From Candidatus Babeliales bacterium (GTDB lineage: Bacteria; Babelota; Babeliae; Babelales; JANWKD01): a DNA stretch of 64,000 nucleotides. Positions 14,178-56,657 of this stretch are shown here, one piece after another. The DNA is taken from contig OY969622.1 in the NCBI GenBank assembly GCA_963701665.1, forward strand, positions 800,001 to 864,000, written 5' to 3'. Position 1 is the stretch's first letter; each line of letters starts with the position of its first letter. Both the position numbers and the translations under genes were made by a program. The notes beneath the pieces are model-generated. The model was not told the origin of the DNA. It did not search any database and worked only from the letters and a program-made list of their open reading frames with translations.

Positions 14178-16820
14178 TTAAGACAACTTAAAATCCTGAC
14201 GAGGTTCAATCCCAAGAAGGGCGTAAATTTCACTGGCAAATAATGTTTCTTTTTCATATAAAACGTTAGCCAACTTCTCGAGCTTATCACGATTGTTTTT
14301 CAAGAGTTGAATAACCTTTTGGTAAGAGCTTTCAAGCAACTTTTGTACCTCAGCATCGATACGTTCAGCTGTTTTTTGGGAGTATTGGTATTCACCCTGG
14401 TTTTGGGTATATACCACTGGCCCCATTTCCTCTGACATACCATAATGGCATACCATTTTACGCGCTATTTCAGTAGCTTTTTCAAAATCATTAGAAGCCC
14501 CGGTAGCAAGCACATTAAAGACTAATTCTTCAGCCGCTCGCCCGCCTAAGCATACCATGATTACCGCAAGCATTTCCTCCCTCGTTTGAGTATATTTGTC
14601 TTTCTCCGGTAGCGAGTGCGTTACTCCTAACGCTCGACCACGCGGAATAATAGTAACTTTATGGAGTGGGTCACTATGTTCTGGCATCAGTAATCTAACG
14701 AGCGCATGTCCTGATTCATGAAATGCGGTAATTTTTCGTTCTTCTGGGGAAAGTATAATAGTCTTAAGTGCTTTACCCAGCATCATTTTATCACTCGCTT
14801 CTTCAAAATCATGAACGGTAACAAATTCTTGTTGCGGATCTTTTGAAGCATTTAAAGCAGCTTCATTGACTAAATTAGCTAGATCAGCGCCCGAAAATCC
14901 TGGTGTTCCGCGAGCAATTTTGCTCAAGTCAACGGCAACATCTAATTTTACATTTTTAGCATGGAGCTTTAATATTTTTTCTCGACAGGTAATATCGGGA
15001 TAAGGAACTTCTACACGTCTATCAAATCTGCCCGGTCGTAAAAGTGCTTTATCGAGTGTTTCTGGTCTGTTTGTTGCAGCCATAACAATCACCGATGTTC
15101 CTTCAGTATCAAAGCCATCCATTTCTGTTAATAACTGATTGAGGGTTTGGTTACGTTCTTCATGGCCACCAATACCAGTCACCCGTTTAGCACCAACTGC
15201 ATCAATTTCATCAATGAATATGATACTTGGATTGTGCTTGCGCGCCTGGTTAAATAAATCACGCACGCGTGAAGCGCCAACACCAACATACATTTCAACA
15301 AATTCCGAAGCACTCACCGAAAAGAAAGGGCAATTTGCTTCGCCAGCAACTGCCTTTGCGAGCAATGTTTTACCATTACCCGGCTCACCGACAAGCAAAA
15401 TACCACGGGTGATTTTAGCACCAAGGCGCTTATAGCGTTCGGGATTCTTCAAAAAGTCGACGACATCTTTTAATTCTTCTTTTGCTTCTTCAACACCAGC
15501 TACATCAGCAAAGGTACATTTGACTTGAGATGGCATAAATAATTTTGCTTTTGCATTGCCTTTTGCTGCAGTACTAAGATTTGATGATTGATTTCTTTGC
15601 GATTCAAGCATAACTTTATGCGCTTCTTCAAGATCCTGCTGATCAACACATTCTTTATTTTTTTTAGAAGCATTAATTGCTGCTTTATTCATAAGATTTG
15701 CAAGATCAGCACCGCTAAAGCCTGCAGTTTCTTCAGCAACTTTTTTTAAGTTAACATCCGCACTCATCTTCAATGCTTGAGCGTTTATTGCTAAAATTTG
15801 TTCTCGGCTTGGCGTATCAGGAAATGAAACTTCAACACGGCGATCAAATCTTCCTGGTCGTAAAAGCGCTTTATCTAAAACATCAGGCATATTTGTTGCG
15901 GCAATAACAATGACTGAAGATCCAGCCGTATCAAAACCATCCATTTCAGTAAGTAATTGGTTGAGCGTTTGCTCACGTTCATCGTGACCCCCGCCAAAAC
16001 CACTCCCTCGTTGACGACCAATAGCATCTATTTCATCAATGAAAACAATACTTGGCGCGTGTTTACGAGCTTGTGCAAAAAGATCACGCACGCGTGCAGC
16101 ACCAACGCCAACAAAAACCTCGATAAAATCTGAACCAGTAATACTGAAAAACGGGCAATTTGCTTCGCCAGCGACTGCTTTTGCAAGTAAGGTTTTACCA
16201 TTCCCTGGCTCACCTATCAATAAAACACCGCGGGTAACTTTAGCCCCTAATCGCTTGTATTTTTCGGGATTTTTCAAGAAATCTACAACATCTTTAAGCT
16301 CTTCTTTTGCGTCGTGGGCACCTGCCACCGATTTAAAGGTAACTTTTATCGTAGAAGGCATAAACATTTTTGCTTTACTTTTGCCCATACTAAAGATATT
16401 ACTGCCGCCGCCTGAACCACGACTTTGTTTGAAGAAATACCAAAAACCAAGTGGCATAAGAAGGAAAGAAGCAATCAACAGTAAATGCCAGAAACTAAAC
16501 TGTGATGATAACGGCGCGACTGAGAATTGAACATTATGGTCACGCAAGAGATCAAGATTCTTTGGATTATCAGCAACGACGGTTTCAAAATGGGTATCAT
16601 CTTTCATGATGCCATACACATCTTGACCATTGATATGTACTGATTTTACTTCATTATTTTCAATTGCATCCAAATACTTTGAATAAGAAATATTTTTTAC
16701 TTGTCGCGTGTAATCAGTTAATTTAGTGAGTAACGCGATAGATATTACAAAGAAAAGGACTACAAAGACTAAGTGTTTAGGCCCGCGTGCAAAAGGATTA
16801 TTTTTTAATTTGTGTCTCAT
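14178..16820 (-). CDS. ftsH: ATP-dependent zinc metalloprotease FtsH with two tandem AAA+ modules
   Basis: Two TM helices, two complete AAA modules ([22 protein letters not shown] each twice), M41 HESGH and GASND; start probably MRHK at 16820. Confidence 0.93.
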
Positions 16821-16997
16821 AATACACCCATTCTTACTTAAATTTTCACATAAAATTGGAGCATAAGCCATTTCGTGACAGAATCATGAAATGGATCTGA
16901 TAATATATTCTAATTGTACTATAAAATATAAAAAATTGAAAGTTCTGAGTAATTATATTATAAAAGATGCGTACTGTCGATCTTTTCTGAAGAAAAA

Positions 16998-22564: not shown

Positions 22565-23872
22565 TTATGATACTGCGCACCATGTTGATGATTTTTCAGG
22601 AACAAGATAAGGCTGCAAAATAGCTGCTAATATGGGCTTATTCTGCATAAGATTCTTAACAGCTTCTTTAACAAGCGAAGGTGCTTTATTGAGTTGAACT
22701 TTTTCATCAATAGTTATCATCTCGAGCAACCATCGCAAGGTTAACGCATCTTCGATTGATAATTTTTGTATATCTGGTTGTAAATCTGGATTTGTTATAT
22801 GCCATTTTTCAACGATTCTTTGATAGGCCATAGTCTTATCACAGATCAACTGATTTTGACTGTCGTACCCTACTGCCTTCTGGGTAGTATACTTTTTAAT
22901 ATTTTCAAGTGAAGCAGCATCCCATATTTGTATTAACCATTTTTTTGTATCTAGTAATGATGATGTTACTAAGTTTGCACCATTTGGTGAGAATGAAACA
23001 GAATGTGCTGGCCCTTGTGAAGTAGCCAGCAATTGACACTTTTGTGTCGCTAAATTCCAAAGGCGTACAATTTTGTCTTCCGTTGCGACTGCTAATATCT
23101 TGTTAGAAGGGGAAAAACGTAATGCAGTAACACATTTTCTGCTTGCGAATTCCGCAATCATACTATCTTCTTGTATACTCCATACAACCACTTTAGAACA
23201 ATTATTCATAGCAAGCGCTATAAGTGATTTATCATCTGAGAAAACGAAGTGTGATGGCGAATTATTTTTTATTTCATCAATAAGTAATTTAGGTAATGTA
23301 TGACTAGCATTAAAACCGTATTTTTTTGCCATTGTTGAAGCAACAAACAAAGACATTTCTGCTGGCATCGTGTCTGAGGGTGGCGCAGTAAATGTTTGCG
23401 TAATTTTAAGCATTTTTTCAAGATGCGTAGTATTAAATTCTTTTATGAGAACATTACTCAACAAATCTGAAGCTATGTTCATAAGAGTACAACAGTCTAA
23501 ATAGTTAGCTGTATTTAATAAAGGTATCAGTGCGTTTAACGATAGTTTTTTTGCTGCGAGGAAAGCTTTGCATTTTTTAAGTATTTCTTCTTTAGATAAA
23601 GTTTTTGATTGTTGAACTAAAAAGTCACTTAATTCTTTAATAATAGACATCTCGCGTGAAGTAACAACATCTGATACTACCAAAGGATTTTGAGTTGTGT
23701 CATCACAGTCTGCGATCATATGAGTAAGTAGTTTTGATTCTTGTATGGTTTCATCGGTAAAGGTAAATTTTCCACCGTCTCGCGTTTCCACCACTATTTC
23801 CATAGCAGAAAGTGAGAATGCGGTATTTATGAGAAACAACATTAAATTTTTTATTACTTTTTTACTAAGCAT
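22565..23872 (-). CDS. Secreted Skp1/BTB-like + WD40 protein with C-terminal CaaX
   Basis: Signal peptide; Skp1-like IVVETRDGGKF...ESKLLTHMIAD...LLNTANYLD; WD40 repeats (VTALRFSP..LAVATEDKIVRLWN, SVSFSPNG..IQIWD); ends CAVS. Confidence 0.8.
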   Translation of the reverse strand: MLSKKVIKNLMLFLINTAFSLSAMEIVVETRDGGKFTFTDETIQESKLLTHMIADCDDTTQNPLVVSDVVTSREMSIIKELSDFLVQQSKTLSKEEILKKCKAFLAAKKLSLNALIPLLNTANYLDCCTLMNIASDLLSNVLIKEFNTTHLEKMLKITQTFTAPPSDTMPAEMSLFVASTMAKKYGFNASHTLPKLLIDEIKNNSPSHFVFSDDKSLIALAMNNCSKVVVWSIQEDSMIAEFASRKCVTALRFSPSNKILAVATEDKIVRLWNLATQKCQLLATSQGPAHSVSFSPNGANLVTSSLLDTKKWLIQIWDAASLENIKKYTTQKAVGYDSQNQLICDKTMAYQRIVEKWHITNPDLQPDIQKLSIEDALTLRWLLEMITIDEKVQLNKAPSLVKEAVKNLMQNKPILAAILQPYLVPEKSSTWCAVS

Positions 23873-24105
23873 TATATCTCCTTTTTATCTAATTTTTGCT
23901 TATCTCCCTAGCATCAAATAATGTCATAAATAAGCTTATCAAATACAGAAAATATGTCAATATGAAATTATTTCTACTGGTTTACAGGGATAAAATACCC
24001 TAAAATTCAATGCCATATTTATGCGTTTTTTATGAATAAATATAAATAAAATATGTAGAGTTGCTGCTCATTTGTTCATAGAATTATTTCAATTCACCCT
24101 GAACA

Positions 24106-24469: not shown

Positions 24470-27400
24470 ATGAAGCGATCCCCCGTTTTCTACATTATTA
24501 TATTGGGCGCTCTATTTTGCACTTCAGCGATTTCGGCTTCCACAGATATAATGCACCATCCAGATTTCAGTACTGATATTATAGTTGATAAAGACTGTAA
24601 ACAGTTTATCCAAGATATTATCAAAGAAGCACTCATTGATAATACGTATGAACAGCTTTCCGAGGGATTATTACATTGTTACGAAAGAATTCAATGCGAT
24701 CCTGAATGTTGCACATTACCCCTTAATGATCTTATAGATGCCTTCCCTGAATTAGTTGCAAAATTAAAAGAGAAGCTTAAAGCTCCCCGCCCTCCTCAGG
24801 GCAATCATGCTATTGTTGGCAGCAATACCATTGATTTTGGATCTCTTATAGCATTACTAATACGATTAGAATTTCTGATCAATCAACTAGCGCAACAACA
24901 AAGCTCTTGCTGTAGCCAGATACTCTCTGACTTTCAGCAAACATGGTCTATCCTTGATCATCTCTCATTTACTACTACGGTGGATCTTTCTTCCGTGTTT
25001 ACGGCGCTCAATGCATGCTGCTCAAATATAACCTCGGAATTCCAACAAACATGGACCATCCTTGATCATCTCTCACTTACTATTACGGCGGATCTTTCTT
25101 CTGTGTTTACGGCGCTCAATGCATGCTGCTCAAACATAAATTCTGAATTCCAACAAACATGGACTATTTTAGCCGGTCTTTCACTAACTGCTACCGTTGA
25201 TCTTTCTTCTGTGTTTACGGGGCTCAACGCATGCTGCTCAAACATAAATTCTGAATTCCAGCAAACATGGACTATGTTAGCCGCCGGGTTTAATGGTACC
25301 TTCAGTACACTTAATAGTTTTAATACCACTGTTACCACAGATTTTTCATCAACCTGGACAATTATCAATACCGGATTCAATGGAACTTTCTCTGCGCTCA
25401 ATGCATGCTGCTCAAACATAAATTCTGAATTCCAACAAACATGGACTATTTTAGCTGCTGATTTCAATGGCACATTCTCTGCAATTAATGCGATCAACAC
25501 TAATGCAAATAACACGTTCACCGTAATCGCAGATCTAAAAACTACGGTGACCAATGACTTTGCTGCAACATGGACAATTATTAATGCTGGATTCAATGGA
25601 ACCTTCTCTGCGCTCAATGCTTGTTGCACGAATATAAATTCTGAGTTTCAACAAACTTGGACGATCTTAGCTGCTGATTTCAATGGCACATTCTCCGCAA
25701 TCAATGCGATCAACACTAATGCAAATAACACGTTCACCGTAATCGCAGATCTAACAACTACGGTGACCAATGACTTTGCCGCAACATGGACAATTATTAA
25801 TGCCGGATTCAACGGCACCTTCTCTGCACTCAATGCTTGCTGCACGAATATAAATTCCGAATTTCAACAAACATGGACAATTTTAGCCGCTGATTTCAAT
25901 GGCACATTCTCCGCAATCAATGCGATCAACACTAATGCAAATAACACATTCACCGTAATAGCAGATCTAACAACTACGGTGACCAATGACTTTGCTGCAA
26001 CATGGACAATTATTAATGCTGGATTCAATGGAACCTTCTCTGCACTTAATGCTTGCTGCAACAATATAAATTCCGAATTTCAACAAACATGGACTATCTT
26101 AGCTGCTGATTTCAATGGCACATTCTCTGCAATTAATGCGATCAACACTAATGCAAATAACACGTTCACCGTAATCGCAGATCTAAAAAACACTGTTACC
26201 AATGACTTTGCTGCAACATGGACAATTATTAATGCCGGATTTAATGGAACCTTTTCAGCGCTCAATGCTTGTTGCACGAATATAAATTCTGAGTTTCAAC
26301 AAACATGGACTATCTTAGCTGCTGATTTCAATGGCACATTCTCCGCAATCAATGCAATAAGCATAGATGCAAATGGCACCTTCTCTGCACTGGCAGATTT
26401 AAAAAATACAATCACCAATGACTTTGCTGCAACGTGGACAATTCTTAATGCTGGATTCAATGGAACTTTCTCTGCGCTCAATGCTTGCTGCACAACTATA
26501 AATTCTGAGTTTCAACAAACCTGGACTATCTTAGCTGCTGATTTCAATGGCACATTCTCCGCAATTAATGCGATCAACACCAATGCAAATAACACATTCA
26601 CCGTAATCGCAGATCTAACAACTACGGTGACCAATGACTTTGCTGCAACGTGGACAATTATTAATGCTGGATTCAACGGCACCTTCTCTGCACTCGATGC
26701 TTGTTGCAACAACATAAATTCTGAGTTTCAACAAACGTGGACTATCTTAGCTGCTGATTTCAATGGCACATTCTCTGCAATTAATGCGATCAACACTAAT
26801 GCAAATAACACGTTCACCGTAATCGCAGATCTAACAACTACGGTGACCAATGACTTTGCTGCAACGTGGACAATTATTAATGCTGGATTCAATGGCACGT
26901 TCTCTGCACTCAATGCCTGTTGCACAACTATAAATTCCGAATTTCAACAAACATGGACTATCTTAGCTGCTGATTTCAATGGCACATTCTCTGCAATTAA
27001 TGCGATCAACACTAATGCAAATAATACGTTCACCGTAATCGCAGATCTAAAAACTACGGTGACCAATGACTTTGCTGCAACATGGACAATTATTAATGCT
27101 GGATTTAATGGAACCTTCTCTGCACTCAATGCTTGTTGCAACAACATAAATTCTGAGTTTCAACAAACATGGACCATCTTAGCTGCTGATTTCAATGGCA
27201 CATTCAGTATGCTTTCAAATCTTTCTACTGCAGTGACCAATGACTTTGCTGCGACCTGGACCATTTTAGCTGCTGGCTTTAATGGAACCTTCAGCGCAAT
27301 TAATGCCATCACGCTTGATGCAAATGGCACCTTTAGCGCACTATTAGATTTGAAAAATACTATCACTAATGATTTTGCTGCAACGTGGACAATTTTAAAC

Positions 27401-29158
27401 GCTGAGTTCAATGGAACGTTCTCTGCACTCAATGCTTGTTGCACTAACATCAATTCTGAATTCCAACAAACATGGACTATCTTAGCTGCCGGATTTAATG
27501 GCACATTCAGCACACTCGCTACTATTCCTGGCGATTTTAACGCTACATGGACTATTTTGGCCTCTGGCTTTAATGGAACTTTCACAGCGCTCAATGCTTG
27601 TTGCACTAACATCAATTCCGAATTCCAACAAACTTGGACTATCTTAGGTGCTGGTTTCAATGGGACTTTCAGCACACTCGCTACTATTCTTGGCGATTTT
27701 AACGCTACGTGGACTATTTTAGCCTCTGGCTTTAACGGCACCTTCTCGGCACTCAACGCCTGTTGCACTAACATTACTTCTGAGTTCCAACAAACTTGGA
27801 CTATTTTAAATGTCTTAACCGAAAACCTTTCAAATCCGGTTATGATTACGCAAGCAAATTTTGGAACAGCAGGTGGAACGCCCTATATCATTTCAACGTC
27901 TGGCGTATATAGGTTGGGTAGCAATGTTGTTTTCACACCATCTATAACAACTACTGCTATACTTATTACGACAACCAACGTTGTCCTTGATCTACAACTC
28001 TTCACATTAAGCCAAGGAAATACCACCACGGGCGTGAATGCTATCGTCGTTAGTTCTGGTATGACCGATGTGTATATTCAAAATGGCACAATAAAAAACT
28101 TCACACGTTCTGCAATATCATTCCAAGGGAACAATCGAAGAGTAGGAATTGATCAAACCACCACCGTATCATGTGCGGTGCGCGGCATCGAGTTAATCTC
28201 ATCGAGCGCACCGAGCCAAAATGTTATCATTCAAAATTGCAATGTATACAATTGCTCAACAGCAGCAACCGCCGATAATGCATTAATTTTACAATCATGT
28301 AATAAAGGAATAATAAAGGATTGCACATTGAATGGTAATGGTGTTAATTCAAATACCATAAATGTACTTAATTTTAATAGCTGCATTGAATTTATTGTGT
28401 CAGATATCAGTATGTATGAAAATACTGCCTCTTCGCTCAACTGCATATCATTAGATAGCACGTCTTCACTTAATTACTTTGATAACTGTATCATGATGAA
28501 TAATCAATCCATTAATACTCTCAATGGGTTTACTATTTCTAGCAACGCCAATATTTTTAACAATTGCATCGTCAATGGAAATATAAGTTATTCGACAAAT
28601 ACCAGTCCTCTAAACGGATTCAATATAGCGGGATCTTTCAATACAATGACTAACTGCGCAGTATCCTTTAATCAAACACCAGTGCCGACAAGTTCGACGA
28701 CAGTTGCCCCTATTAATGCTTTTGACTTAAGCGGATCTGAAAACATCCTATCTAATTGTCAATCAATATTCAACCAGGCCAACAGTCGTTTTGAGGGATG
28801 TTTTATCTCTACTACGAGCAATATCATCGATCACTTTATAGCCGCTAATAATATAGGTTTCTTAGGTGTCTGTGCTGGCATTTTCATTAACAGCGCCTCA
28901 GCTGTTAACAATATAGTAAGGAATTGTTTATTCGTAAATAATCTTGGTTATACTACTGTGAGTGGACAACCCACCAATGGTTTCGGACTAGATAATGCGG
29001 CTACGGGATATTTAATCTATGACAATGTTGCGTATATAAATCAAACTACACAAATTTTTGGTGTCGCTGCAGGATCTTTAACAACGCCAACAGCACCAGC
29101 ATCACAAAACTTGGCAGCTGTTACAGGTGCCTGGACTAATTTAGCACTCGCTGCTTAA
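24470..29158 (+). CDS. Giant secreted repeat protein 1 (Cys-Cys coiled-coil-like stalk + beta-helix-like head)
   Basis: Signal peptide; 216-nt/72-aa repeats (NACC..INSEFQQTWTIL..FNGTF); Asn/Cys-rich beta-helix-like C-terminal domain; AAGGA RBS. Confidence 0.9.
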   Translation: MKRSPVFYIIILGALFCTSAISASTDIMHHPDFSTDIIVDKDCKQFIQDIIKEALIDNTYEQLSEGLLHCYERIQCDPECCTLPLNDLIDAFPELVAKLKEKLKAPRPPQGNHAIVGSNTIDFGSLIALLIRLEFLINQLAQQQSSCCSQILSDFQQTWSILDHLSFTTTVDLSSVFTALNACCSNITSEFQQTWTILDHLSLTITADLSSVFTALNACCSNINSEFQQTWTILAGLSLTATVDLSSVFTGLNACCSNINSEFQQTWTMLAAGFNGTFSTLNSFNTTVTTDFSSTWTIINTGFNGTFSALNACCSNINSEFQQTWTILAADFNGTFSAINAINTNANNTFTVIADLKTTVTNDFAATWTIINAGFNGTFSALNACCTNINSEFQQTWTILAADFNGTFSAINAINTNANNTFTVIADLTTTVTNDFAATWTIINAGFNGTFSALNACCTNINSEFQQTWTILAADFNGTFSAINAINTNANNTFTVIADLTTTVTNDFAATWTIINAGFNGTFSALNACCNNINSEFQQTWTILAADFNGTFSAINAINTNANNTFTVIADLKNTVTNDFAATWTIINAGFNGTFSALNACCTNINSEFQQTWTILAADFNGTFSAINAISIDANGTFSALADLKNTITNDFAATWTILNAGFNGTFSALNACCTTINSEFQQTWTILAADFNGTFSAINAINTNANNTFTVIADLTTTVTNDFAATWTIINAGFNGTFSALDACCNNINSEFQQTWTILAADFNGTFSAINAINTNANNTFTVIADLTTTVTNDFAATWTIINAGFNGTFSALNACCTTINSEFQQTWTILAADFNGTFSAINAINTNANNTFTVIADLKTTVTNDFAATWTIINAGFNGTFSALNACCNNINSEFQQTWTILAADFNGTFSMLSNLSTAVTNDFAATWTILAAGFNGTFSAINAITLDANGTFSALLDLKNTITNDFAATWTILNAEFNGTFSALNACCTNINSEFQQTWTILAAGFNGTFSTLATIPGDFNATWTILASGFNGTFTALNACCTNINSEFQQTWTILGAGFNGTFSTLATILGDFNATWTILASGFNGTFSALNACCTNITSEFQQTWTILNVLTENLSNPVMITQANFGTAGGTPYIISTSGVYRLGSNVVFTPSITTTAILITTTNVVLDLQLFTLSQGNTTTGVNAIVVSSGMTDVYIQNGTIKNFTRSAISFQGNNRRVGIDQTTTVSCAVRGIELISSSAPSQNVIIQNCNVYNCSTAATADNALILQSCNKGIIKDCTLNGNGVNSNTINVLNFNSCIEFIVSDISMYENTASSLNCISLDSTSSLNYFDNCIMMNNQSINTLNGFTISSNANIFNNCIVNGNISYSTNTSPLNGFNIAGSFNTMTNCAVSFNQTPVPTSSTTVAPINAFDLSGSENILSNCQSIFNQANSRFEGCFISTTSNIIDHFIAANNIGFLGVCAGIFINSASAVNNIVRNCLFVNNLGYTTVSGQPTNGFGLDNAATGYLIYDNVAYINQTTQIFGVAAGSLTTPTAPASQNLAAVTGAWTNLALAA
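25430..27810 (+). repeat. Intragenic 216-bp tandem repeat (about 8 full units plus shorter variants); equivalent arrays in the three paralogs
   Basis: The period is visible directly and in antisense shadow ORF boundaries 25648, 25864, 26080, 26296, 26512, 26728, 26944, 27160. Confidence 0.95.
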
Positions 29159-29215
29159 AAGGAGATAAACACCATGGAACGTATTTCTCTTTTTAACATG
29201 TAGAAAAGGAACTTA

Positions 29216-32200
29216 ATGAAGCAATCCCTCGTTTTCTATACTATTATAATGGGTGCTCTATTTTGCACTTCAGCAATGCCAATTTCGATGGATATGCTGT
29301 ATCAGCAAGACTTTACTCCTGATATTATTATTGACAGCGAATGTAAAAAATTCATTCAAACTATTATTGAAGAAGCGCTCATTGAAAATACGCAGGAACA
29401 ACTTTCTGAGGGATTATTAAAATGTTACGCAACAATTCAACGAGACCCTGAATGTTGCACGTTACCGCTTAATGATCTCATAGACGCTTTCCCTGAATTA
29501 GTAGCAAAATTAGAAGATAAACTTAAAGCCCCTCGTCCACAACAAGGCGGTCATGCTATTGTTGGCGGCAACACCATTGATTTTGGACCCATTATAGCCT
29601 TATTACTACGGCTAGAATTTCTCATCAATCAAATAAACCAAAGCTCTTGTTGTAACCAGATACTTTCTGACTTTCAGCAAACATGGACAATCCTTAATCA
29701 TCTTTCATTTACAACTTCCGTTGATCTTTCTCCTGTATTTACCGCACTCAACGCATGCTGCTCAAACATAACCTCGGAATTCCAGCAAACATGGACTATT
29801 CTTGCTAATCTCTCAGTTACTGCTACCGTGGATCTTTCTCCCGTGTTTACGGCGCTTAATGCATGCTGCTCAAACATAACCTCGGAATTCCAACAAACAT
29901 GGACTATACTAGCCAATCTCTCGATTACTGCCACAGTGGATCTTTCTTCTGTGTTTACAGTACTCAATGCGTGCTGCTCAAATATAAATTCTGAATTTCA
30001 ACAAACATGGACTATCTTAGCCTCCGGATTTAATGGAACTTTTAGCATACTTTCAAATCTTACTACTAGTACTGCCGATTTTGCTGCAACATGGACAATT
30101 TTAAATGCCGGATTCAATGGAACTTTCTCTGCGCTCAACGCATGCTGCTCAAACATAAATTCTGAATTCCAACAAACATGGTCAATTTTAGCTGCTGATT
30201 TTAATGGAACTTTTAGCACTATCGCAAACATTAATGTCGAAACAAATGGTACTTTTACTGCAATTGCTGATTTAAAAAACACTATCACCACAGACTTTGC
30301 TGCAACGTGGACAATTTTAAACGCTGGTTTCAATGGAACCTTCTCCGCTCTCAATGCTTGTTGCACAACTATAAATTCTGAATTTCAACAAACATGGTCA
30401 ATTTTAGCTGCTGATTTCAATGGAACTTTCTCCGCAATCAATGCAATAAACACAGACGCAAATGGCACCTTTAGCGCAATTGCTGATTTAACAACTACTA
30501 TCACCAATGATTTTGCTGCAACGTGGACTATGCTTAACGCTGGTTTTAATGGCACCTTCTCTGCTCTCAGCGCATGTTGCACAACTATAAATTCAGAATT
30601 CCAACGAACATGGACTATTTTAGCCGCCGGCTTTAATGGAACTTTCTCTGCAATCAATGCAATTAATATTGATGCAAATGGCACCTTCACTGCCTTAGCA
30701 GATTTAACAACTACTATCACCAATGACTTTGCTGCAACGTGGACTATGCTTAACGCTGGTTTTAATGGCACCTTCAGCGCACTTAACGCATGCTGCACGA
30801 ATATAAACTCTGAGTTTCAACAAACATGGACTATTTTAGCTGCTGATTTCAATGGCACATTCTCTGCAATTAATGCCATCACTTTTGATGCAAATGGTAC
30901 CTTCTCTGCGATTGCTGATTTGAAAAACACTATCACCAATGATTTTGTTGGTACGTGGACTATTCTTAACGCTGGATTCAATGGAACCTTTTCTGCACTC
31001 AATGCTTGCTGTACAACTATAAATTCTGAATTCCAACAAACGTGGACTATCCTAGCTGCTGATTTCAATGGCACATTCTCTGCAATTAATGCCATCACTA
31101 TTGATGCAAATGGCACCTTCTCTGCAATTGCTGATTTGAAAAACACTATCACTAATGACTTTACTGCAACATGGACAATTCTTAATGCTGGATTCAATGG
31201 GACTTTCTCTGCGCTCAACGCCTGTTGCACAACTATAAATTCTGAATTTCAACAAACTTGGACTATCCTAGCCGCCGGGTTTAATGGTACATTCTCTGCA
31301 ATTAATGCCATCACTATTGATGCAAATGGCACTCTTACTGCGTTAGCAGATTTAAAAAATACTATCACTAATGATTTTGCTGCAACATGGACAATTCTTA
31401 ATGCTGGATTCAATGGAACCTTCTCTGCACTCAATGCTTGCTGTACAACTATAAATTCTGAATTCCAACAAACGTGGACTATCCTAGCTGCTGATTTCAA
31501 TGGCACCTTCAGCGCTATCGCAAACATTATTCCCGAAGCAAACGGTACTTTCACTGCATTAGCAGATTTAAAAAATACTATCACCAACGACTTTGCTGCA
31601 ACGTGGACAATTCTTAATGCCGGCTTTAATGGAACTTTCAGCGCACTCAATGCCTGCTGCACAACTATAAATTCTGAATTTCAACAAACATGGACAATTT
31701 TAGGCGCTGGTTTCAATGGAACTTTCAGCGCTATCGCAAACATTAATGCCGAAGCGAATGGTACTTTTACTGCGTTAGCAGATTTAACAACTACTATAAC
31801 CAATGACTTTGCCGCAACGTGGACAATTCTTAATGCTGGATTCAATGGAACTTTCTCTGCGCTCAATGCTTGTTGCACAACTATAAACTCCGAATTTCAA
31901 CAAACATGGACTATCTTAGCTGCTGGTTTTAATGGAACTTTTAGTATACTTTCAAATCTTACTACTACGGTGACCAATGATTTTGCTGCAACGTGGACTA
32001 TTTTAGCTGCTGGATTCAATGGAACTTTCAGCGTTATCGCAAACATTAATGCTCAAGCAAATGCTACTTTTACTGCCTTAGCAGATTTAAAAATTACTAT
32101 CACCAATGATTTTGCTGCAACATGGACAATTTTGGCTGCCGGTTTCAATGGAACTTTCTCTGCACTCAATGCCTGCTGCACGAATATAAATTCCGAATTC

Positions 32201-33865
32201 CAACAAACATGGACGATCTTAGCCGCCGGATTTAATGGCACCTTCAGCTCACTCCCTGCTTTTATGAGCGATTTTAACGCAACATGGACTATTTTAAATG
32301 CTGGTTTCAATGGCACATTCTCTGCTCTCAATGCTTGTTGCACGAATATAAATTCTGAATTCCAGCAAACATGGACTATCCTAGGTGCCGGCTTCAATGG
32401 AACTTTCAGCACATTCGCCACTATTATTTCAGATTTTAATGATACATGGTCTACTCTAGCAGCAGGCTTTAACGGAACAGCCTCGGCACTCAACGCCTGT
32501 TGTACCAACATTACTTCCGAATTTCAACAAACATGGACAATTTTAAATGTCTCAACTGAAAACCTTTCAAATCCAGTTATGATTACACAAGCAAATTTTG
32601 GAGCAACAGGTGGAACACAATACGTCATTTCAACATCTGGTGTCTATAGGTTGGGTAGTAACATTGTCTTTACACCAGCTACAGCAATACCCGCTATTCT
32701 TATTACAACAACCAATGTCGTTCTTGATTTACAACTCTTCACCTTAAGCCAGGGAAATAGTACCACGGGTGTGAATGCTATCCAAGTTAGTTCTGGTATG
32801 GCCAGTGTGTATATTCAAAATGGCATGATAGAAAATTTCACGCGAGCGGCAATATCATTCCAAGGAAATAATCAAGGAGTGGGAATTGATAATACCACCA
32901 CCCTATCATGTGCCGTGCGCGGTATCGAGTTCATTGCATCAGGAACTAGCCAAAACATTACCATTCAAAATTGCAAAGTATACAATTGCTCAACATCAGC
33001 GAGCGCTGATAATGCAATGATCTTACAAGCATGTAAAAAGGGAATAATAAAGAATTGTGCCTTGAACGGAAATGGCGTTGCTTCAAAAAACATAACGGCA
33101 CTTAATTTTAACGGCTGCATTGAATTTAATGTATCTGACATCAGTATGTATGAAAATCTTGGTTCAAGCTTCAATGGCGTACAATTAGATAGCACGTCAT
33201 CACTCAATAATTTTACTAATTGCATCATCATAAATAATCAAAGTTCAGGATCGTCCGGAACATGCGCAGGAATTAACCTTAACGGAAGCTCCTCTAATAC
33301 TTTTAATTCTTGTATCATTAATAATAATAACGCTAGCAACAGCGGAGCATTCAATGGCATTTGGCTTCAAGGTTCTGCCCCAAATAATAATACGTTTAAC
33401 TCATGTAAAGTATCTTTTAACACAGCGGCGTTGCTCTGTACTGCAATTTATGGCAACGCTGGTTCTTCTAATTCCTTTAACTTCTGCCAAACAAATGCAA
33501 ATACATCAACTTCTTCCTACGGATCAGGAATTACTATTAATTCCAACTCTAACACGCTTAACAATTGCATAGTACTCTCTAATAAAGGACCAGCCGTTCA
33601 AGGCTTTGGTATCACTACGACAGGAAATGATTGTGTGGTTAAGGATTGTCTGAGTGCATTTAACCTAGGATCCAGTGGCGGCAATGGCTTTGGGTTTAAT
33701 AATACCAGCAATGCAATTCTCTATTATAGGAATGTTGCTTATGATAATCCGGGTACGCAAGCTTTTGGTATAGCAGCTGGATCTTTAACGACGCCAACAG
33801 CACCAGCATCACAACACTTGGCAACCGTCACATCACCTTGGACTAATTTAGCACTCGCTGCTTAA
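29216..33865 (+). CDS. Giant secreted repeat protein 2
   Basis: Paralog of 24470-29158 with the same architecture; head is divergent. Confidence 0.9.
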   Translation: MKQSLVFYTIIMGALFCTSAMPISMDMLYQQDFTPDIIIDSECKKFIQTIIEEALIENTQEQLSEGLLKCYATIQRDPECCTLPLNDLIDAFPELVAKLEDKLKAPRPQQGGHAIVGGNTIDFGPIIALLLRLEFLINQINQSSCCNQILSDFQQTWTILNHLSFTTSVDLSPVFTALNACCSNITSEFQQTWTILANLSVTATVDLSPVFTALNACCSNITSEFQQTWTILANLSITATVDLSSVFTVLNACCSNINSEFQQTWTILASGFNGTFSILSNLTTSTADFAATWTILNAGFNGTFSALNACCSNINSEFQQTWSILAADFNGTFSTIANINVETNGTFTAIADLKNTITTDFAATWTILNAGFNGTFSALNACCTTINSEFQQTWSILAADFNGTFSAINAINTDANGTFSAIADLTTTITNDFAATWTMLNAGFNGTFSALSACCTTINSEFQRTWTILAAGFNGTFSAINAINIDANGTFTALADLTTTITNDFAATWTMLNAGFNGTFSALNACCTNINSEFQQTWTILAADFNGTFSAINAITFDANGTFSAIADLKNTITNDFVGTWTILNAGFNGTFSALNACCTTINSEFQQTWTILAADFNGTFSAINAITIDANGTFSAIADLKNTITNDFTATWTILNAGFNGTFSALNACCTTINSEFQQTWTILAAGFNGTFSAINAITIDANGTLTALADLKNTITNDFAATWTILNAGFNGTFSALNACCTTINSEFQQTWTILAADFNGTFSAIANIIPEANGTFTALADLKNTITNDFAATWTILNAGFNGTFSALNACCTTINSEFQQTWTILGAGFNGTFSAIANINAEANGTFTALADLTTTITNDFAATWTILNAGFNGTFSALNACCTTINSEFQQTWTILAAGFNGTFSILSNLTTTVTNDFAATWTILAAGFNGTFSVIANINAQANATFTALADLKITITNDFAATWTILAAGFNGTFSALNACCTNINSEFQQTWTILAAGFNGTFSSLPAFMSDFNATWTILNAGFNGTFSALNACCTNINSEFQQTWTILGAGFNGTFSTFATIISDFNDTWSTLAAGFNGTASALNACCTNITSEFQQTWTILNVSTENLSNPVMITQANFGATGGTQYVISTSGVYRLGSNIVFTPATAIPAILITTTNVVLDLQLFTLSQGNSTTGVNAIQVSSGMASVYIQNGMIENFTRAAISFQGNNQGVGIDNTTTLSCAVRGIEFIASGTSQNITIQNCKVYNCSTSASADNAMILQACKKGIIKNCALNGNGVASKNITALNFNGCIEFNVSDISMYENLGSSFNGVQLDSTSSLNNFTNCIIINNQSSGSSGTCAGINLNGSSSNTFNSCIINNNNASNSGAFNGIWLQGSAPNNNTFNSCKVSFNTAALLCTAIYGNAGSSNSFNFCQTNANTSTSSYGSGITINSNSNTLNNCIVLSNKGPAVQGFGITTTGNDCVVKDCLSAFNLGSSGGNGFGFNNTSNAILYYRNVAYDNPGTQAFGIAAGSLTTPTAPASQHLATVTSPWTNLALAA

Positions 33866-33922
33866 AAGGAGATAAACACCATGGAACGTATTCCTCTTTT
33901 TAACATATAGAAAAGGAACTTA

Positions 33923-36900
33923 ATGAAGCAATCCCTCGTTTTCTATACTATTGTATTGAGCATTCTGTTTTGCACTTCAGCAATCTCAGGTTCAATAGAT
34001 ATGCTACATCAGCCACGCTTTACTCCTGATATTGTCATCGACACAGCATGTAAAAAGTTTATTCAAGATATAATTGAAGAAGCGCTCACTGAAAATATGT
34101 ATGAACAACTTTCTGAGGGATTATTAACATGTTACGCAACGATTCAATGCGAACCCGAATGTTGCACATTGCCGCTTAATGATCTCATAGACGCTTTCCC
34201 AGAATTAGTAGCGAAATTAGAAGATAAGCTTAAAGCACCTCGCCCACAAGGCGGTCATGCTATTGTTGGCAGCAGTACCATAGATTTTGAATCTATTATA
34301 GCCTTCTTATTACGCTTAGAATTTCTCATCAATCAAATAAGTCAACAACAAACATTTTGCTGTAACCAAATACTCGCTGATTTTCAACAAACATGGACAA
34401 TTCTTGCCAATCTCTCAATTACTACTACAGTAGATCTTTCTCCTGTGTTTACCACACTCGATGCATGTTGTTCTAATATAACCTCGGAATTCCAGCAAAC
34501 ATGGACAATTCTTGCCAATCTTTCAATTACTGCTACGGCGGATCTTGCTCCTGTGTTTACCTCACTCGATGCATGTTGCTCTAACATAACCTCGGAGTTC
34601 CAGCAAACATGGACCATACTAGCCAATCTCTCAGTTACTGCCACGGCTGATCTTTCTTCCGTATTCACTGCACTTAATGCGTGCTGCTCAAACATAAATT
34701 CTGAATTTCAACAAACATGGACTATCTTAGCTGCTGGGTTTAATGGTACCTTCTCTGCTATCAATAGTTTCAATACCACTATTACTGCAGATTTTTCATC
34801 AACGTGGACTATTTTAAATGCTGGATTTAATGGAACCTTCAGCGCACTCAATACCTGCTGCACAAATATAAACTCGGAATTCCAACAAACATGGACTATC
34901 TTAGCTGCTGGTTTTAATGGTACATTCTCTGCGATTAATGCCATCACTATCGATACAAATGGTACTTTAACCGCAATTGTTGATTTAACAACTACTATCA
35001 CTAATGACTTTGCTGCAACATGGACTATTTTAAATGCCGGATTTAATGGAACTTTCTCTACGCTCAATACCTGCTGCACGAATATAAACTCGGAATTCCA
35101 ACAAACATGGACTATCTTAGCTGCTGGTTTTAATGGTACATTCTCTGCAATTAATGCCATCACTATCGATACAAATGGTACTTTAACCGCAATTGCTGAT
35201 TTAACAACTACTATCACTAATGACTTTGCTGCAACGTGGACAATTTTAAATGCCGGATTCAATGGAACCTTCAGCGTACTCAATGCTTGTTGCGCGAATA
35301 TAAATTCTGAGTTTCAACAGACGTGGACTATTTTAGCTGCTGATTTTAATGGTACATTCTCTGCAATTAATGCCATCACTATCGATACAAATAGTACTTT
35401 AACCGCAATTGCTGATTTAACAACTACTATCACTAATGACTTTGCTGCAACGTGGACAATTTTAAACGCTGGTTTCAATGGCACATTTTCTGCTCTCAAT
35501 GCTTGTTGCACAACTATAAACTCTGAATTCCAACAAACGTGGACTATCTTAGCTGCTGATTTTAATGGTACATTCTCTGCAATTAATGCCATCACTATCG
35601 ATACAAATGGTACTTTAACCGCAATTGCTGATTTAACAACTGCTATCACCAATGACTTTGCTGCAACGTGGACAATTCTTAATGCTGGATTCAATGGCAC
35701 TTTCTCCGCTCTCAATGCTTGCTGCACAACTATAAACTCTGAGTTTCAACAGACGTGGACTATGTTAGCCGCTGATTTCAATGGCACATTCTCTGTAATT
35801 AATGCGATCACTATTGATGCAAATGGTACTTTAACCGCAATTGCAGATTTAACAACTACTATCACTAATGATTTTGCTGCAACATGGACAATTATTAATG
35901 CTGGATTTAATGGAACTTTCAGCGTACTCAATGACTGTTGCACAACTATAAATTCCGAATTTCAACAAACATGGACCATTTTAGCTGCTGATTTCAATGG
36001 CACATTCTCTGCAATTAATGCAATTAATGAGTCGAATGGCACTTTTACTGCGTTAGCAGATTTAAAAACTACCATCACGAATGACTTTGCTGCAACATGG
36101 ACGATTCTTAATGCTGGATTCAATGGCACTTTCTCTGCTCTCAATGCTTGTTGCACGAATATAAATTCTGAATTTCAACAAACGTGGACCATTTTAGCCG
36201 CTGATTTCAATGGCACATTCTCTGTAATTAATGCGATCACTATTGATGCAAATGGTACTTTAACCGCAATTGCAGATTTAACAACTACTATCACTAATGA
36301 TTTTGCTGCAACGTGGACAATTCTTAATGCTGGATTCAATGGCACATTCTCCGCGCTCAATGCTTGCTGCACCAATATAAATTCAGAATTTCAACAAACA
36401 TGGACAATTCTTAATGCTGGATTCAATGGCACATTCTCCGCAATCAATGCAATAAATACGAATGCAAATAGCACTTTCACCGCCTTAGCAGATTTAAAAA
36501 CTACTATCACCAATGATTTTGCTGCAACATGGACTCTGTTAAATACTGGATTCAATGGCACTTTTTCCGCTCTCAATGCTTGTTGCACGAATATCAATTC
36601 CGAATTCCAACAAACGTGGACTATTTTAGCTACCGGGTTCAATGGCACCTTCAGTACACTCTCAAATCTTACTACTACGGTGACCAATGACTTTGCAGCA
36701 ACGTGGACCATTTTAGCTGCTGGTTTTAATGGAACTTTCAGCACTATCGCAAACATTAATGAAGCAAATGCTACTTTTACTGCATTAGCAGATTTAACAA
36801 CTACTATCACTAATGATTTTGCTGCAACATGGACTATTTTAGCCACTGGTTTCAATGGAACGTTCTCTGCGCTCAATGCTTGTTGCACAAATATAAATTC

Positions 36901-38587
36901 TGAATTCCAACAAACATGGACTATTTTAGCTGCCGGATTTAATGGCACTTTCAGCACACTCCCAAATCTTACTGCTGACTTTGCAGCAACATGGACAATT
37001 TTAGCTGCAGGCTTTAATGGGACATTCTCGGCACTCAACGCGTGTTGTACCAACATTACTTCCGAATTCCAACAAACATGGACTATCTTAGCTGCTGGAT
37101 TCAATGGAACTTTCAGCACGCTCGCCGCTATTCTTGGTGATTTTAACGCTACATGGACTATTCTAGCTGCAGGCTTTAATGGGACATTCTCGGCACTCAA
37201 CACCTGTTGTACCAACATCACTTCTGAGTTCCAACAAACCTGGACTATTTTAAATGTCTTAACCGAAAACCTTTCAAATCCGGTTATGATTACCCAAGCA
37301 AATTTTGGTGCAACGGGAGGAACTACCTATACCATTTCAACATCGGGTGTGTATAGATTAGGGAGTAACATCGTCTTTACCCCAGCAACAGCAATACCTG
37401 CTATTCTTATTACCACGACTGATGTCGTTCTTGATTTGCAGCTTTTCAACCTCACTCAAGGAAATGCCACTACCGGTGTAAATGCCATCCAAGTTAGTTC
37501 TGGTATGGCTGACGTTTACATTAAAAATGGTTTGATAGAAAATTTCACACGCGCAGCAATATCGTTTCAGGGAAGCAATCAAAGAGTTGGCATTGATACT
37601 ACAACCACCATATCATGTGCCGTAACTGGCATTGAATTCGTTTCAACAGGAACGCCTAGTCAAAACATTACTATTCAACATTGTAATATTTATAACTGCT
37701 CAACGGCATCAGGTGCCACTTTCCCACTGAATTTACAATTATGTAAAGAAGGAAAAATAAAAAATTGTAACTTTAATAGTAATGGTACTTCATCAAACAA
37801 CATAAATGTGCTTAATTTTAGCGGCTGTGTTGAATTTATTGTGAAAGATATCAGTGTGAAAGAAAATCTTGGTTCATTTCTCAATTGTGTATCATTAGAT
37901 AGCACATCTTCCCTTAATTATTTCAATAATTGCAGCATTCTCAATAATCAAAGCAATGGTAATACCCTCGATGGATTTGTCATGAATGGCAGCAACTCTA
38001 ATATTTTCAATAATTGTATTGTAAATGGAAACCAAGGCACCTCAAATGGCTCTTTTAATGGATTCATAATGCAAAGTGGCGCATATAACAACACATTTAA
38101 TAGTTGCACAGCTTCCTATAATACTACATCAGGAAGTACAGCAACTATTGTTGCGTTTAACTTAGGGGGACCTTATAACTTCGCATTTAATTGCGTAGCA
38201 GAGTCAAATATCTGCGGGGGTAACCAATGTTATGGCTGCCTTGTCAGTACATCCACCAATATAATCGATAACTTCGTAGCAGCCAATAATATGTCTGGAG
38301 GTACTTCTGATTGTTATGGCATCAATATTAATCAAGCAGCTGCTTATAACAATGTAATAAGCAATTGTTTGTGCTCGAATAATAACAGTGCTACAAACGG
38401 CGATACTGTTGGAATAAGCAATTCAAGTTTACAATATTTATTCTATCGTAATGTTTCCTACTCGAATAATGGAACACAAATTAGCGGTATAGCTTCCCCT
38501 GGATCGTTGACAACGCCAACAGCACCAGCATCACAGAACCTAGGAACTGTGACGGGCGCTTGGACTAATTTAGCTCTTGCAAGTTAA
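33923..38587 (+). CDS. Giant secreted repeat protein 3
   Basis: Paralog with the same architecture. Confidence 0.9.
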   Translation: MKQSLVFYTIVLSILFCTSAISGSIDMLHQPRFTPDIVIDTACKKFIQDIIEEALTENMYEQLSEGLLTCYATIQCEPECCTLPLNDLIDAFPELVAKLEDKLKAPRPQGGHAIVGSSTIDFESIIAFLLRLEFLINQISQQQTFCCNQILADFQQTWTILANLSITTTVDLSPVFTTLDACCSNITSEFQQTWTILANLSITATADLAPVFTSLDACCSNITSEFQQTWTILANLSVTATADLSSVFTALNACCSNINSEFQQTWTILAAGFNGTFSAINSFNTTITADFSSTWTILNAGFNGTFSALNTCCTNINSEFQQTWTILAAGFNGTFSAINAITIDTNGTLTAIVDLTTTITNDFAATWTILNAGFNGTFSTLNTCCTNINSEFQQTWTILAAGFNGTFSAINAITIDTNGTLTAIADLTTTITNDFAATWTILNAGFNGTFSVLNACCANINSEFQQTWTILAADFNGTFSAINAITIDTNSTLTAIADLTTTITNDFAATWTILNAGFNGTFSALNACCTTINSEFQQTWTILAADFNGTFSAINAITIDTNGTLTAIADLTTAITNDFAATWTILNAGFNGTFSALNACCTTINSEFQQTWTMLAADFNGTFSVINAITIDANGTLTAIADLTTTITNDFAATWTIINAGFNGTFSVLNDCCTTINSEFQQTWTILAADFNGTFSAINAINESNGTFTALADLKTTITNDFAATWTILNAGFNGTFSALNACCTNINSEFQQTWTILAADFNGTFSVINAITIDANGTLTAIADLTTTITNDFAATWTILNAGFNGTFSALNACCTNINSEFQQTWTILNAGFNGTFSAINAINTNANSTFTALADLKTTITNDFAATWTLLNTGFNGTFSALNACCTNINSEFQQTWTILATGFNGTFSTLSNLTTTVTNDFAATWTILAAGFNGTFSTIANINEANATFTALADLTTTITNDFAATWTILATGFNGTFSALNACCTNINSEFQQTWTILAAGFNGTFSTLPNLTADFAATWTILAAGFNGTFSALNACCTNITSEFQQTWTILAAGFNGTFSTLAAILGDFNATWTILAAGFNGTFSALNTCCTNITSEFQQTWTILNVLTENLSNPVMITQANFGATGGTTYTISTSGVYRLGSNIVFTPATAIPAILITTTDVVLDLQLFNLTQGNATTGVNAIQVSSGMADVYIKNGLIENFTRAAISFQGSNQRVGIDTTTTISCAVTGIEFVSTGTPSQNITIQHCNIYNCSTASGATFPLNLQLCKEGKIKNCNFNSNGTSSNNINVLNFSGCVEFIVKDISVKENLGSFLNCVSLDSTSSLNYFNNCSILNNQSNGNTLDGFVMNGSNSNIFNNCIVNGNQGTSNGSFNGFIMQSGAYNNTFNSCTASYNTTSGSTATIVAFNLGGPYNFAFNCVAESNICGGNQCYGCLVSTSTNIIDNFVAANNMSGGTSDCYGININQAAAYNNVISNCLCSNNNSATNGDTVGISNSSLQYLFYRNVSYSNNGTQISGIASPGSLTTPTAPASQNLGTVTGAWTNLALAS

Positions 38588-38600
38588 AAAGGAGATAAAT

Positions 38601-56537: not shown

Positions 56538-56589
56538 TGAGTCCCCCAGTATGTTATGATGAAATACGTGCCACGTTCTGACTTTTTAC

Positions 56590-56632
56590 TTAAAAAGCCT
56601 TCTTAACGATAGTTCATTAAGAAGGCTTTTTA
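56590..56632. terminator. Rho-independent terminator between the two NTT genes
   Basis: TAAAAAGCCTTCTTAA...TTAAGAAGGCTTTTTA hairpin. Confidence 0.75.
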
Positions 56633-56657
56633 ATTTCATATACTCACAATCATCTGA

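What the first reader, a model, noticed from the sequence alone, without database searches (positions are those of the whole stretch)
22565..23872. Candidate SCF-mimic effector: Skp1-like domain + WD40 repeats + CaaX prenylation box
Seen: after the signal peptide, MEIVVETRDGGKFTF...ESKLLTHMIAD...LIPLLNTANYLDCCTLMNIAS follows the eukaryotic Skp1 pattern (IKLQSSDGEIF...S.TIK.ML.D...LILAANYLDI). WD40 repeats follow, and the protein ends in CAVS. Established: Skp1 bridges Cullin1 to F-box/WD40 receptors; CaaX with X=S is a farnesyltransferase substrate; Legionella AnkB uses an F-box plus host farnesylation to anchor on the vacuole. Inference: a one-chain adaptor-plus-receptor that recruits a host cullin ligase at a membrane.
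Basis: partly seen in the sequence, partly recalled or inferred. Interest (0 to 1): 0.75.

Follow-up and report, generated by a model that had tools for sequence, protein, structure and literature searches.

The report
Secreted Skp1-fusion protein with prenylation tail
A bacterium related to known parasites of protists encodes a protein that joins a domain of the eukaryotic ubiquitin-ligase adaptor Skp1 to a partial WD40 propeller and a conserved lipid-attachment motif; it is likely exported and likely plugs into the host's cullin-1 ligase at a membrane without host Skp1 or F-box proteins, and related Skp1 fusions occur in about a quarter of the phylum's genomes searched.

Summary
ORF 22565-23872(-) (435 aa), in a Ca. 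Babelota genome, has a signal-peptide-like start, a Skp1-type BTB core, WD40 repeats and a CaaX end. The family profile hits Skp1 at E 3.5e-21 (ElonginC 2e-6), and the fold search agrees. CaaX-Ser is kept in 6 of 6 orthologues (23-80% identical to it) and in 0 of 32 other family members.

Four refinements:
1. The protein is one member of a phylum-wide family of Skp1-core fusions (61 of 261 genomes) carrying WD40, LRR or ankyrin repeats.
2. Skp1's F-box-binding tail is missing (PF01466 in 0 of 261 genomes). An LPxE helix resembling F-box helix 1 takes its place, and that evidence is weak.
3. The propeller has only about 3 blades, so it must oligomerise or is not a normal receptor.
4. One Cul1-contact motif (NYLD) is kept; the other (PxPN) is degenerate in this clade.

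Best reading: a farnesylated, one-chain Skp1/F-box substitute that recruits host CUL1 at a membrane (about 0.5). Cullin binding, export and prenylation are untested. My 10 literature searches found no description of the family, and five look-ups found no earlier scan report of it.

The parts
23878..23883 (-). Shine-Dalgarno-like AAGGAG, 5 nt before the ATG
   Evidence: sequence
22565..23872 (-). Whole ORF, 435 aa (P0001)
   Evidence: orthologues of 424-434 aa
23804..23872 (-). Predicted Sec-type signal peptide (residues 1-23; cleavage site inferred)
   Evidence: basic start plus hydrophobic core; junction motif enriched genome-wide, 167 vs 18 of 1148; no dedicated predictor run
23429..23803 (-). 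Skp1-derived BTB/POZ core (residues ~24-148)
23669..23686 (-). Position of Skp1's PxPN Cul1-contact motif, degenerate here (residues 63-68)
   Evidence: among 6 orthologues first Pro 1/6, second Pro 3/6, Asn 0/6; other Babelota members 26/39, 19/39, 13/39; eukaryotic Skp1 100%
23492..23506 (-). NYLD(C) motif at the end of the BTB core, retained (residues 123-127)
   Evidence: Asn 6/6, aromatic 5/6, Leu 6/6, Asp/Asn 6/6; its role in cullin contact is recalled from the SCF structure, not from a call
23318..23368 (-). LPxE-type helix resembling F-box helix 1, where Skp1's F-box-binding tail would be (residues 169-185)
   Evidence: window at about the 98.5th percentile of controls; Pfam F-box only 1 of 18 segments at E 0.03; no PDB F-box hit
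22841..23251 (-). Partial WD40 propeller: three blades plus a hairpin (residues ~208-344)
22607..22828 (-). C-terminal helical domain (residues ~349-422), specific to the orthologue clade in my search
   Evidence: its profile hits only the orthologues among 35 family ORFs and only this gene among the genome's called ORFs
22568..22579 (-). CaaX box CAVS on a tail predicted with low confidence (pLDDT under 50)
   Evidence: (model residues 406-413)

Best explanation
This protein carries a Skp1-derived BTB core, an F-box-helix-like segment, a three-blade WD40 piece and a conserved CaaX-Ser tail, and is likely an exported effector that would be farnesylated by a protist host and would likely dock on host CUL1 in place of the Skp1/F-box pair, at a membrane. 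Steps: (1) Export through Sec, then a secretin channel or vesicles: inferred. (2) Host farnesyltransferase modifies the terminal cysteine and anchors the protein to the cytosolic face of a host membrane: motif and conservation shown, modification inferred. (3) The Skp1 core binds the CUL1 N-terminal repeat, with the cis LPxE helix standing in for F-box helix 1; lacking Skp1's F-box-binding tail, it would not load host F-box proteins: homology and loss of the tail shown, binding inferred. (4) The partial propeller, probably completed by oligomerisation, plus the C-terminal helices would present host membrane proteins for ubiquitination: inferred, and the weakest step.
For: Skp1 is the closest family by profile (E 3.5e-21 vs ElonginC 1.8e-6). 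A six-member subprofile finds 403 proteins at E<=1e-6; the best 120 all carry both Skp1 Pfam domains and are 28-43% identical to a family member. Fold agrees. NYLD is retained. The Skp1 C-terminal domain PF01466 is found in 0 of 261 genomes, and no cullin in 0 of 261 (neither search rang in its control genomes). The segment after the core scores above the 95th percentile of 3000 control windows against a Babelota F-box HMM in 15 of 41 members, mostly on helix 1. The same core is fused to WD40, LRR and ankyrin repeats across the phylum, as expected of interchangeable substrate receptors. CaaX-Ser is in 6 of 6 orthologues; X=Ser directs farnesylation (PMC9141697, passages). CaaX is enriched in signal-peptide-like ORFs of this genome: Cys at -4 in 17 of 490 vs 2-11 at other positions. 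The genome has two secretins and no VirB4 or FlhA/SctV match. Precedent: farnesylated F-box AnkB (PMC2916131, abstract).
Against: The PxPN motif, described as involved in Cul1 binding (PMC1257465, passages), is degenerate in this clade: Asn 0 of 6. The F-box likeness is weak: 1 of 18 segments at Pfam E 0.03 and none for the window protein, no PDB F-box match, and 26 of 41 members do not exceed the 95th percentile; the members are kin, so the test overstates. VIA ties ElonginC with Skp1. Three blades do not make the closed propeller surface that WD40 receptors use. A Sec signal only reaches the periplasm, so the route to the host cytosol is not shown. The host is unknown.
Confidence: 0.5

Rival explanations
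1. Membrane-anchored cullin decoy: it binds CUL1 through the Skp1 core but has no working receptor, so it sequesters CUL1-RBX1 and blocks host SCF ligases.
For: The propeller is truncated to about 3 blades while many relatives keep 6-7 WD repeats. It lacks the F-box-binding tail. A paralogue in the same genome also has only 1-2 WD40 repeats.
Against: The WD40 piece and C-terminal helices are conserved in length and at many invariant positions across orthologues, which a pure decoy would not need. Three-blade fragments can assemble into full propellers (PDB 6r5z, 118 of 119 residues aligned, rmsd 2.5).
Confidence: 0.18
2. The clade has lost cullin binding; the BTB core now serves as a self-association or scaffold domain in a prenylated effector that acts through other host partners.
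For: PxPN is degenerate, and the clade's domains are far from Skp1 (window E 6e-9, one orthologue only 0.22, against 1e-26 for the most Skp1-like members). Branches are long.
Against: NYLD and the Glu of the LPxE helix stay invariant or nearly so in the six orthologues.
Confidence: 0.17
3. It recruits a different cullin: CUL2/5 as an ElonginC-like module, or CUL3 like BTB-BACK adaptors.
For: VIA ranks ElonginC first, tied with Skp1 (Z 12.2 vs 12.0). BTB-3-box/BACK proteins align over 120-140 residues including the following helices at Z 7.5-8.8. The overall architecture resembles mimivirus BTB-WD40 proteins.
Against: Sequence profiles prefer Skp1 over ElonginC by 15 orders of magnitude and list no Cul3-type BTB. 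Pfam assigns Skp1_POZ in 16 of 17 members and lists no BTB family.
Confidence: 0.12
4. It is not delivered to the host; it stays in the periplasm or envelope and the CaaX is incidental.
For: Only a Sec-type signal is seen; no type III or IV marker matched.
Against: Skp1 domains and CaaX have no known bacterial partners (own knowledge). CaaX is conserved only in this clade and enriched only among signal-peptide-like ORFs.
Confidence: 0.03

Closest known systems
Eukaryotic Skp1 in SCF (CRL1) ligases
   Same: BTB core homologous by profile and fold; NYLD retained.
   Different: Skp1 consists almost only of the BTB fold plus two C-terminal helices that bind F-boxes (PMC1257465, passages). Here that tail is absent, and the core is fused to a signal peptide, repeats and CaaX.
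CUL3-type BTB adaptors, including chlamydial PEX1 BTB-LRR proteins and mimivirus BTB/POZ-WD40 proteins
   Same: One chain combining a BTB-fold cullin adaptor with repeat domains; expanded families in protist-associated bacteria (PMC4209131, passages) and giant viruses.
   Different: The domain here groups with Skp1/ElonginC, not with Cul3-type BTBs. Export signal is Sec-like rather than type III. A CaaX tail is present in this clade. That paper called Parachlamydiaceae the only prokaryotes known with BTB domains in 2014.
Legionella AnkB (F-box + ankyrin + CaaX)
   Same: SCF-directed effector anchored by host farnesylation (PMC2916131, abstract).
   Different: AnkB binds host Skp1 through an F-box; this protein brings its own Skp1 core and would bypass host Skp1. 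WD40 instead of ankyrin; no type IV marker found.
Prenylated eukaryotic F-box proteins FBXL2 and FBXO10
   Same: CaaX targets an SCF receptor to membranes (PMC9141697 passages; PMC11042265 search listing).
   Different: Separate F-box subunits, geranylgeranylated; need Skp1 in trans.
Babelota F-box, WD40, ankyrin and RING proteins
   Same: Same phylum, signal-peptide-bearing, ubiquitin-system-related (PMC4378268, PMC4776705, PMC6561590; passages).
   Different: In PMC4378268 'skp' occurs only in a reference title and 'prenyl' not at all. The other two were not searched for those words directly, but neither came up in the Skp1 co-occurrence searches. Supplements were not read.

Membership tests
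Skp1 family | BTB core of the Skp1/ElonginC branch (PF03931) | tested here: met
Skp1 family | C-terminal F-box-binding helices (PF01466) | tested here: not met
   Not conserved in the alignment with 120 eukaryotic Skp1; PF01466 not listed for any of 17 members and 0 of 261 genomes (no ringing control)
Skp1 family | PxPN motif in strand B3 | tested here: not met
   degenerate in the six orthologues, though partly kept in other family members
Skp1 family | Binds CUL1 | not testable with these tools
   No complex model was obtained; needs experiment
F-box proteins | Full ~40-residue three-helix F-box | tested here: not met
   matches cover only about profile positions 4-20
F-box proteins | LPxE helix 1 motif | tested here: inconclusive
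   26 of 39 members match a loose pattern vs 14% background, including a few at unlikely spacing; 15 of 41 above the 95th percentile
WD40 substrate receptors (Cdc4/Fbw7/beta-TrCP type) | Closed 7-8-bladed propeller in one chain | tested here: not met
   14 strands, about 150 residues aligned to ~300-residue propellers
CUL3-type BTB adaptors | BTB of the BTB-ZF/BBK/MATH type | tested here: inconclusive
   Fold shared at lower Z (<=10.8); no sequence-profile match listed
Host-prenylated bacterial effectors | C-terminal CaaX, conserved | tested here: met
Host-prenylated bacterial effectors | Translocation and actual prenylation in host | not testable with these tools
   needs experiment

The most novel reading that the evidence does not exclude
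Babelota captured eukaryotic Skp1, cut off its F-box-binding tail, fused an F-box first helix in cis and expanded the module into a phylum-wide library of secreted one-chain SCF receptors that bypass host Skp1. This clade adds host farnesylation and a split propeller that assembles by oligomerisation, giving a membrane-bound, multivalent CUL1 ligase, delivered by a Sec-plus-secretin or vesicle route.
Probability: 0.3. Interest if true: 0.85.

Novelty: new variant of a known kind. Interest (0 to 1): 0.64.

Why it matters
Known bacterial SCF hijackers use F-boxes and depend on host Skp1, while one-chain cullin adaptors are known for CUL3. A natural Skp1-based one-chain adaptor would be a third design, present in 61 of 261 genomes of a little-studied phylum of protist parasites. 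It gives direct, simple tests (cullin pull-down, CaaX mutant in yeast) of how Babelota remodel their hosts. The enrichment of CaaX among signal-peptide-bearing proteins is also indirect evidence that Sec-exported Babelota proteins reach the host cytosol, which is an open question. A compact CUL1-recruiting module could also serve as a protein-degradation tool.

Tried and rejected
Structural test of cullin binding: no model was produced for the N-domain with a CUL1 N-terminal domain, so binding is left open. Homo-oligomer of the partial propeller: not modelled.

Whole-protein fold searches were dominated by the propeller and said nothing on the N-domain, so it was folded alone.

F-box by Pfam (1 of 18) and by PDB profile (only a chance CagY match, E 1.8) was not supported as a full domain.

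Donor of the Skp1 domain: the tree of 45 bacterial and 38 sampled eukaryotic cores (82 of the 120 eukaryotic hits left out) puts the eukaryotic proteins on one side of a branch (98/94) and the six orthologues together with weak support (82/70). With 127 columns, long branches and no root it names no donor.

Relatives outside the phylum were not found with these queries. Viral contigs gave one 18-residue match and then none; plasmids none; the genome-contig scan gave two Babeliales loci plus four cyanobacterial WD40-only matches. These searches are of low sensitivity, so absence from Chlamydiae, Legionellales or giant viruses is not shown.

ESM Atlas: N-part nearest to Skp1 clusters at 0.82, full protein to BTB-propeller clusters at 0.79, both under the 0.9 lead threshold.

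No RNA holder was listed.

Neighbourhood: the same-genus relative keeps the tail-to-tail neighbour, the tRNA-nucleotidyltransferase and the tolQ/tolR-like genes; the same-family relative does not. No functional link to neighbours is inferred.

Five look-ups of earlier scan findings gave nothing relevant. A search for a recalled Skp1 mutant paper returned nothing.

Full report
Setting. The window lies in a 1.34 Mb, 37% GC single-contig genome. The two closest genomic relatives of the gene come from records titled Candidatus Babeliales, and five named protein relatives likewise. Babelota (Dependentiae, TM6) are intracellular parasites of protists with many signal-peptide proteins and eukaryote-like repeats (PMC4378268, PMC6561590, PMC4776705; passages read). 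The genome has two secretin matches and no match to VirB4 or FlhA/SctV, with controls ringing, at 93.6% completeness.

The ORF. AlphaFold2 on the six-sequence orthologue alignment gives mean pLDDT 86.9 and pTM 0.80. It shows a mixed alpha/beta N-domain, linker helices, 14 strands, a helical C-domain and a low-confidence tail.

The N-domain is Skp1-derived. The single sequence is marginal, so I gathered relatives: 9 of 201 genomes at E<=0.001. The resulting 17-row profile hits Skp1 structures at E 3.5e-21 and ElonginC at 1.8e-6; Pfam Skp1_POZ is found in 16 of 17 rows. A six-row subprofile retrieves 403 proteins among 4537 candidates; the best 120 all carry both Skp1 domains. The separately folded N-region (pLDDT 84.9, 42 rows) returns only chains of Skp1-containing entries in the listed Foldseek ranks (best E 3.6e-5, TM 0.54). 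VIA gives Z 12.2 (rmsd 2.4, 88 aligned) for ElonginC, 12.0 (5.8, 138) and 11.8 (3.0, 118) for Skp1, and at most 10.8 for other BTB families.

What is kept and lost. Against 120 eukaryotic Skp1 proteins, the core up to about Skp1 residue 125 is recognisable and the C-terminal F-box-binding tail is not. PF01466, the model for that tail, matched 0 of 261 genomes (no control rang, but all 120 listed eukaryotic hits carry it). Of two cullin-facing motifs, NYLD is kept in the six orthologues (Asn 6/6, aromatic 5/6, Leu 6/6, Asp or Asn 6/6; its contact role is recalled). PxPN, which PMC1257465 (passages) ties to Cul1 binding, is degenerate (Pro 1/6, Pro 3/6, Asn 0/6), while the other 39 bacterial members keep it better (26, 19 and 13 of 39). 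So the family looks like a cullin-1 binder more clearly than this member does.

An F-box-like helix in cis. After the core many members show L-P-x-E/D-L/I-x-x-x-aliphatic: a loose pattern matches in 26 of 39 against 14% background, a few at doubtful spacing, with three rows dropped for lack of an anchor. Against an HMM of 30 Babelota F-boxes, 15 of 41 unselected downstream segments exceed the 95th and 8 the 99th percentile of 3000 control windows, mostly on the first F-box helix; the window protein sits at about the 98.5th. Pfam finds an F-box in only 1 of 18 segments (E 0.03, not the window's) and the PDB profile search finds none. I read this as a helix-1-like motif, not an F-box domain. That F-box helix 1 touches CUL1 is recalled; PMC4403949 (passages) describes a supplementary receptor-cullin contact by an LPXP motif.

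The propeller is partial. Pfam covers about residues 203-346. About 150 residues align to ~300-residue propellers, and the model matches a three-blade fragment that assembles into a nine-bladed ring (6r5z, Z 15.3, 118 of 119 residues). All six orthologues are 424-435 aa long, so this is not a truncation artefact. Many other members have six or seven WD repeats, LRRs or ankyrins.

CaaX is selected. The six orthologues (23-80% identical to the window protein; one is a near copy) end CAVS, CAVS, CSIS, CAIS, CAIS and CVIS; Cys and Ser are among 33 invariant columns. None of 32 complete non-orthologous members has Cys at -4. X=Ser directs farnesylation (PMC9141697, passages). Genome-wide, Cys at -4 is found in 17 of 490 ORFs passing a crude signal-peptide filter (2-11 at the other 14 terminal positions) and 9 of 658 others. 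A stricter CaaX rule, set after I had seen the list, gives 7 of 490 against 0.87 expected and 0 of 658.

Range. The N-domain profile matches 61 of 261 genomes of the phylum at E<=1e-5 (42 of 189 high-quality ones), with up to 13 matches per genome, scoring being capped near that number and the profile's own source genomes included. The full-length CaaX clade is narrow: of 31 relatives searched, only this genome, one same-genus and one same-family genome match end to end, plus three metagenomic proteins. Its own genome has two more diverged members. No cullin was found in 261 genomes (no ringing control), so a cullin partner would be the host's.

Mechanism. I commit to a secreted, host-farnesylated, one-chain substitute for Skp1 plus F-box that recruits CUL1-RBX1 at a membrane (0.5). 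Shown: domain identities, loss of the Skp1 tail, CaaX conservation, family breadth. Inferred: export to the cytosol, prenylation, CUL1 binding, oligomerisation, substrates. Rivals are a CUL1-sequestering decoy (0.18), a scaffold that has lost cullin binding (0.17), another cullin (0.12) and no delivery (0.03). No complex model was obtained.

Comparison and novelty. It works like a cross of AnkB (PMC2916131, abstract) and the one-chain BTB adaptors of Parachlamydiaceae (PMC4209131, passages) and mimiviruses. It is not a member of the Skp1 family (tail and PxPN not met), not an F-box protein and not a complete WD40 receptor. [quoted passage not shown] Ten full-text searches listed no paper describing Skp1 fusions or CaaX effectors in Babelota. 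The library lacks most subscription papers, two of the searches were swamped by unrelated hits, and supplements were not read, so an annotation in a table may exist. Verdict: a real feature, a new variant of a known kind, interest 0.64.

Noticed in passing
G000 genome-wide, e.g. C1:187442-187801, 613653-614042, 785864-787234, 979061-979441, 1073296-1074159, 1287967-1288512: A set of signal-peptide-like ORFs ending in CaaX, several with basic or Ser/Trp-rich tails like eukaryotic prenylated proteins; most have no Pfam match, two carry ankyrins.
   Followed up: partly
G000:C1:410680-412089 and 1099180-1101006: Two further diverged Skp1-core proteins; the first has only 1-2 WD40 repeats and neither has CaaX.
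   Followed up: partly
G000:C1:50659-51879 (L050:1339-2559): Signal-peptide-like protein with a weak F-box match (E 3.5e-4) and ankyrin repeats, so conventional F-box effectors may coexist with the Skp1 fusions.
   Followed up: partly
window 24470-43346 (+): Four tandem ~1550-aa signal-peptide-like proteins; the two read in full are built of repeats rich in Thr/Asn/Phe/Trp with Cys-Cys pairs, and the one scanned has no credible Pfam family.
   Followed up: no
window 14178-16871 (-): FtsH with two AAA domains in tandem.
   Followed up: no
window 58383-60812 (+), stop near 59760: Lon protease interrupted by one in-frame stop inside the AAA domain; could be an assembly error or a real split.
   Followed up: partly
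window 55134-58004 (-): Two adjacent membrane-protein genes; the first matches the TLC ATP/ADP transporter family, typical of energy parasites; the second was not scanned.
   Followed up: partly
L044 (G130), L034 (G209), P0006: Family members with two Skp1-like cores in tandem (L044, P0006) or a long extension before the core (L034); tandem gene arrays in G138 and G232.
   Followed up: no
G173: 24 F-box-like matches and 10 Skp1-core matches in one 1.4 Mb genome.
   Followed up: no
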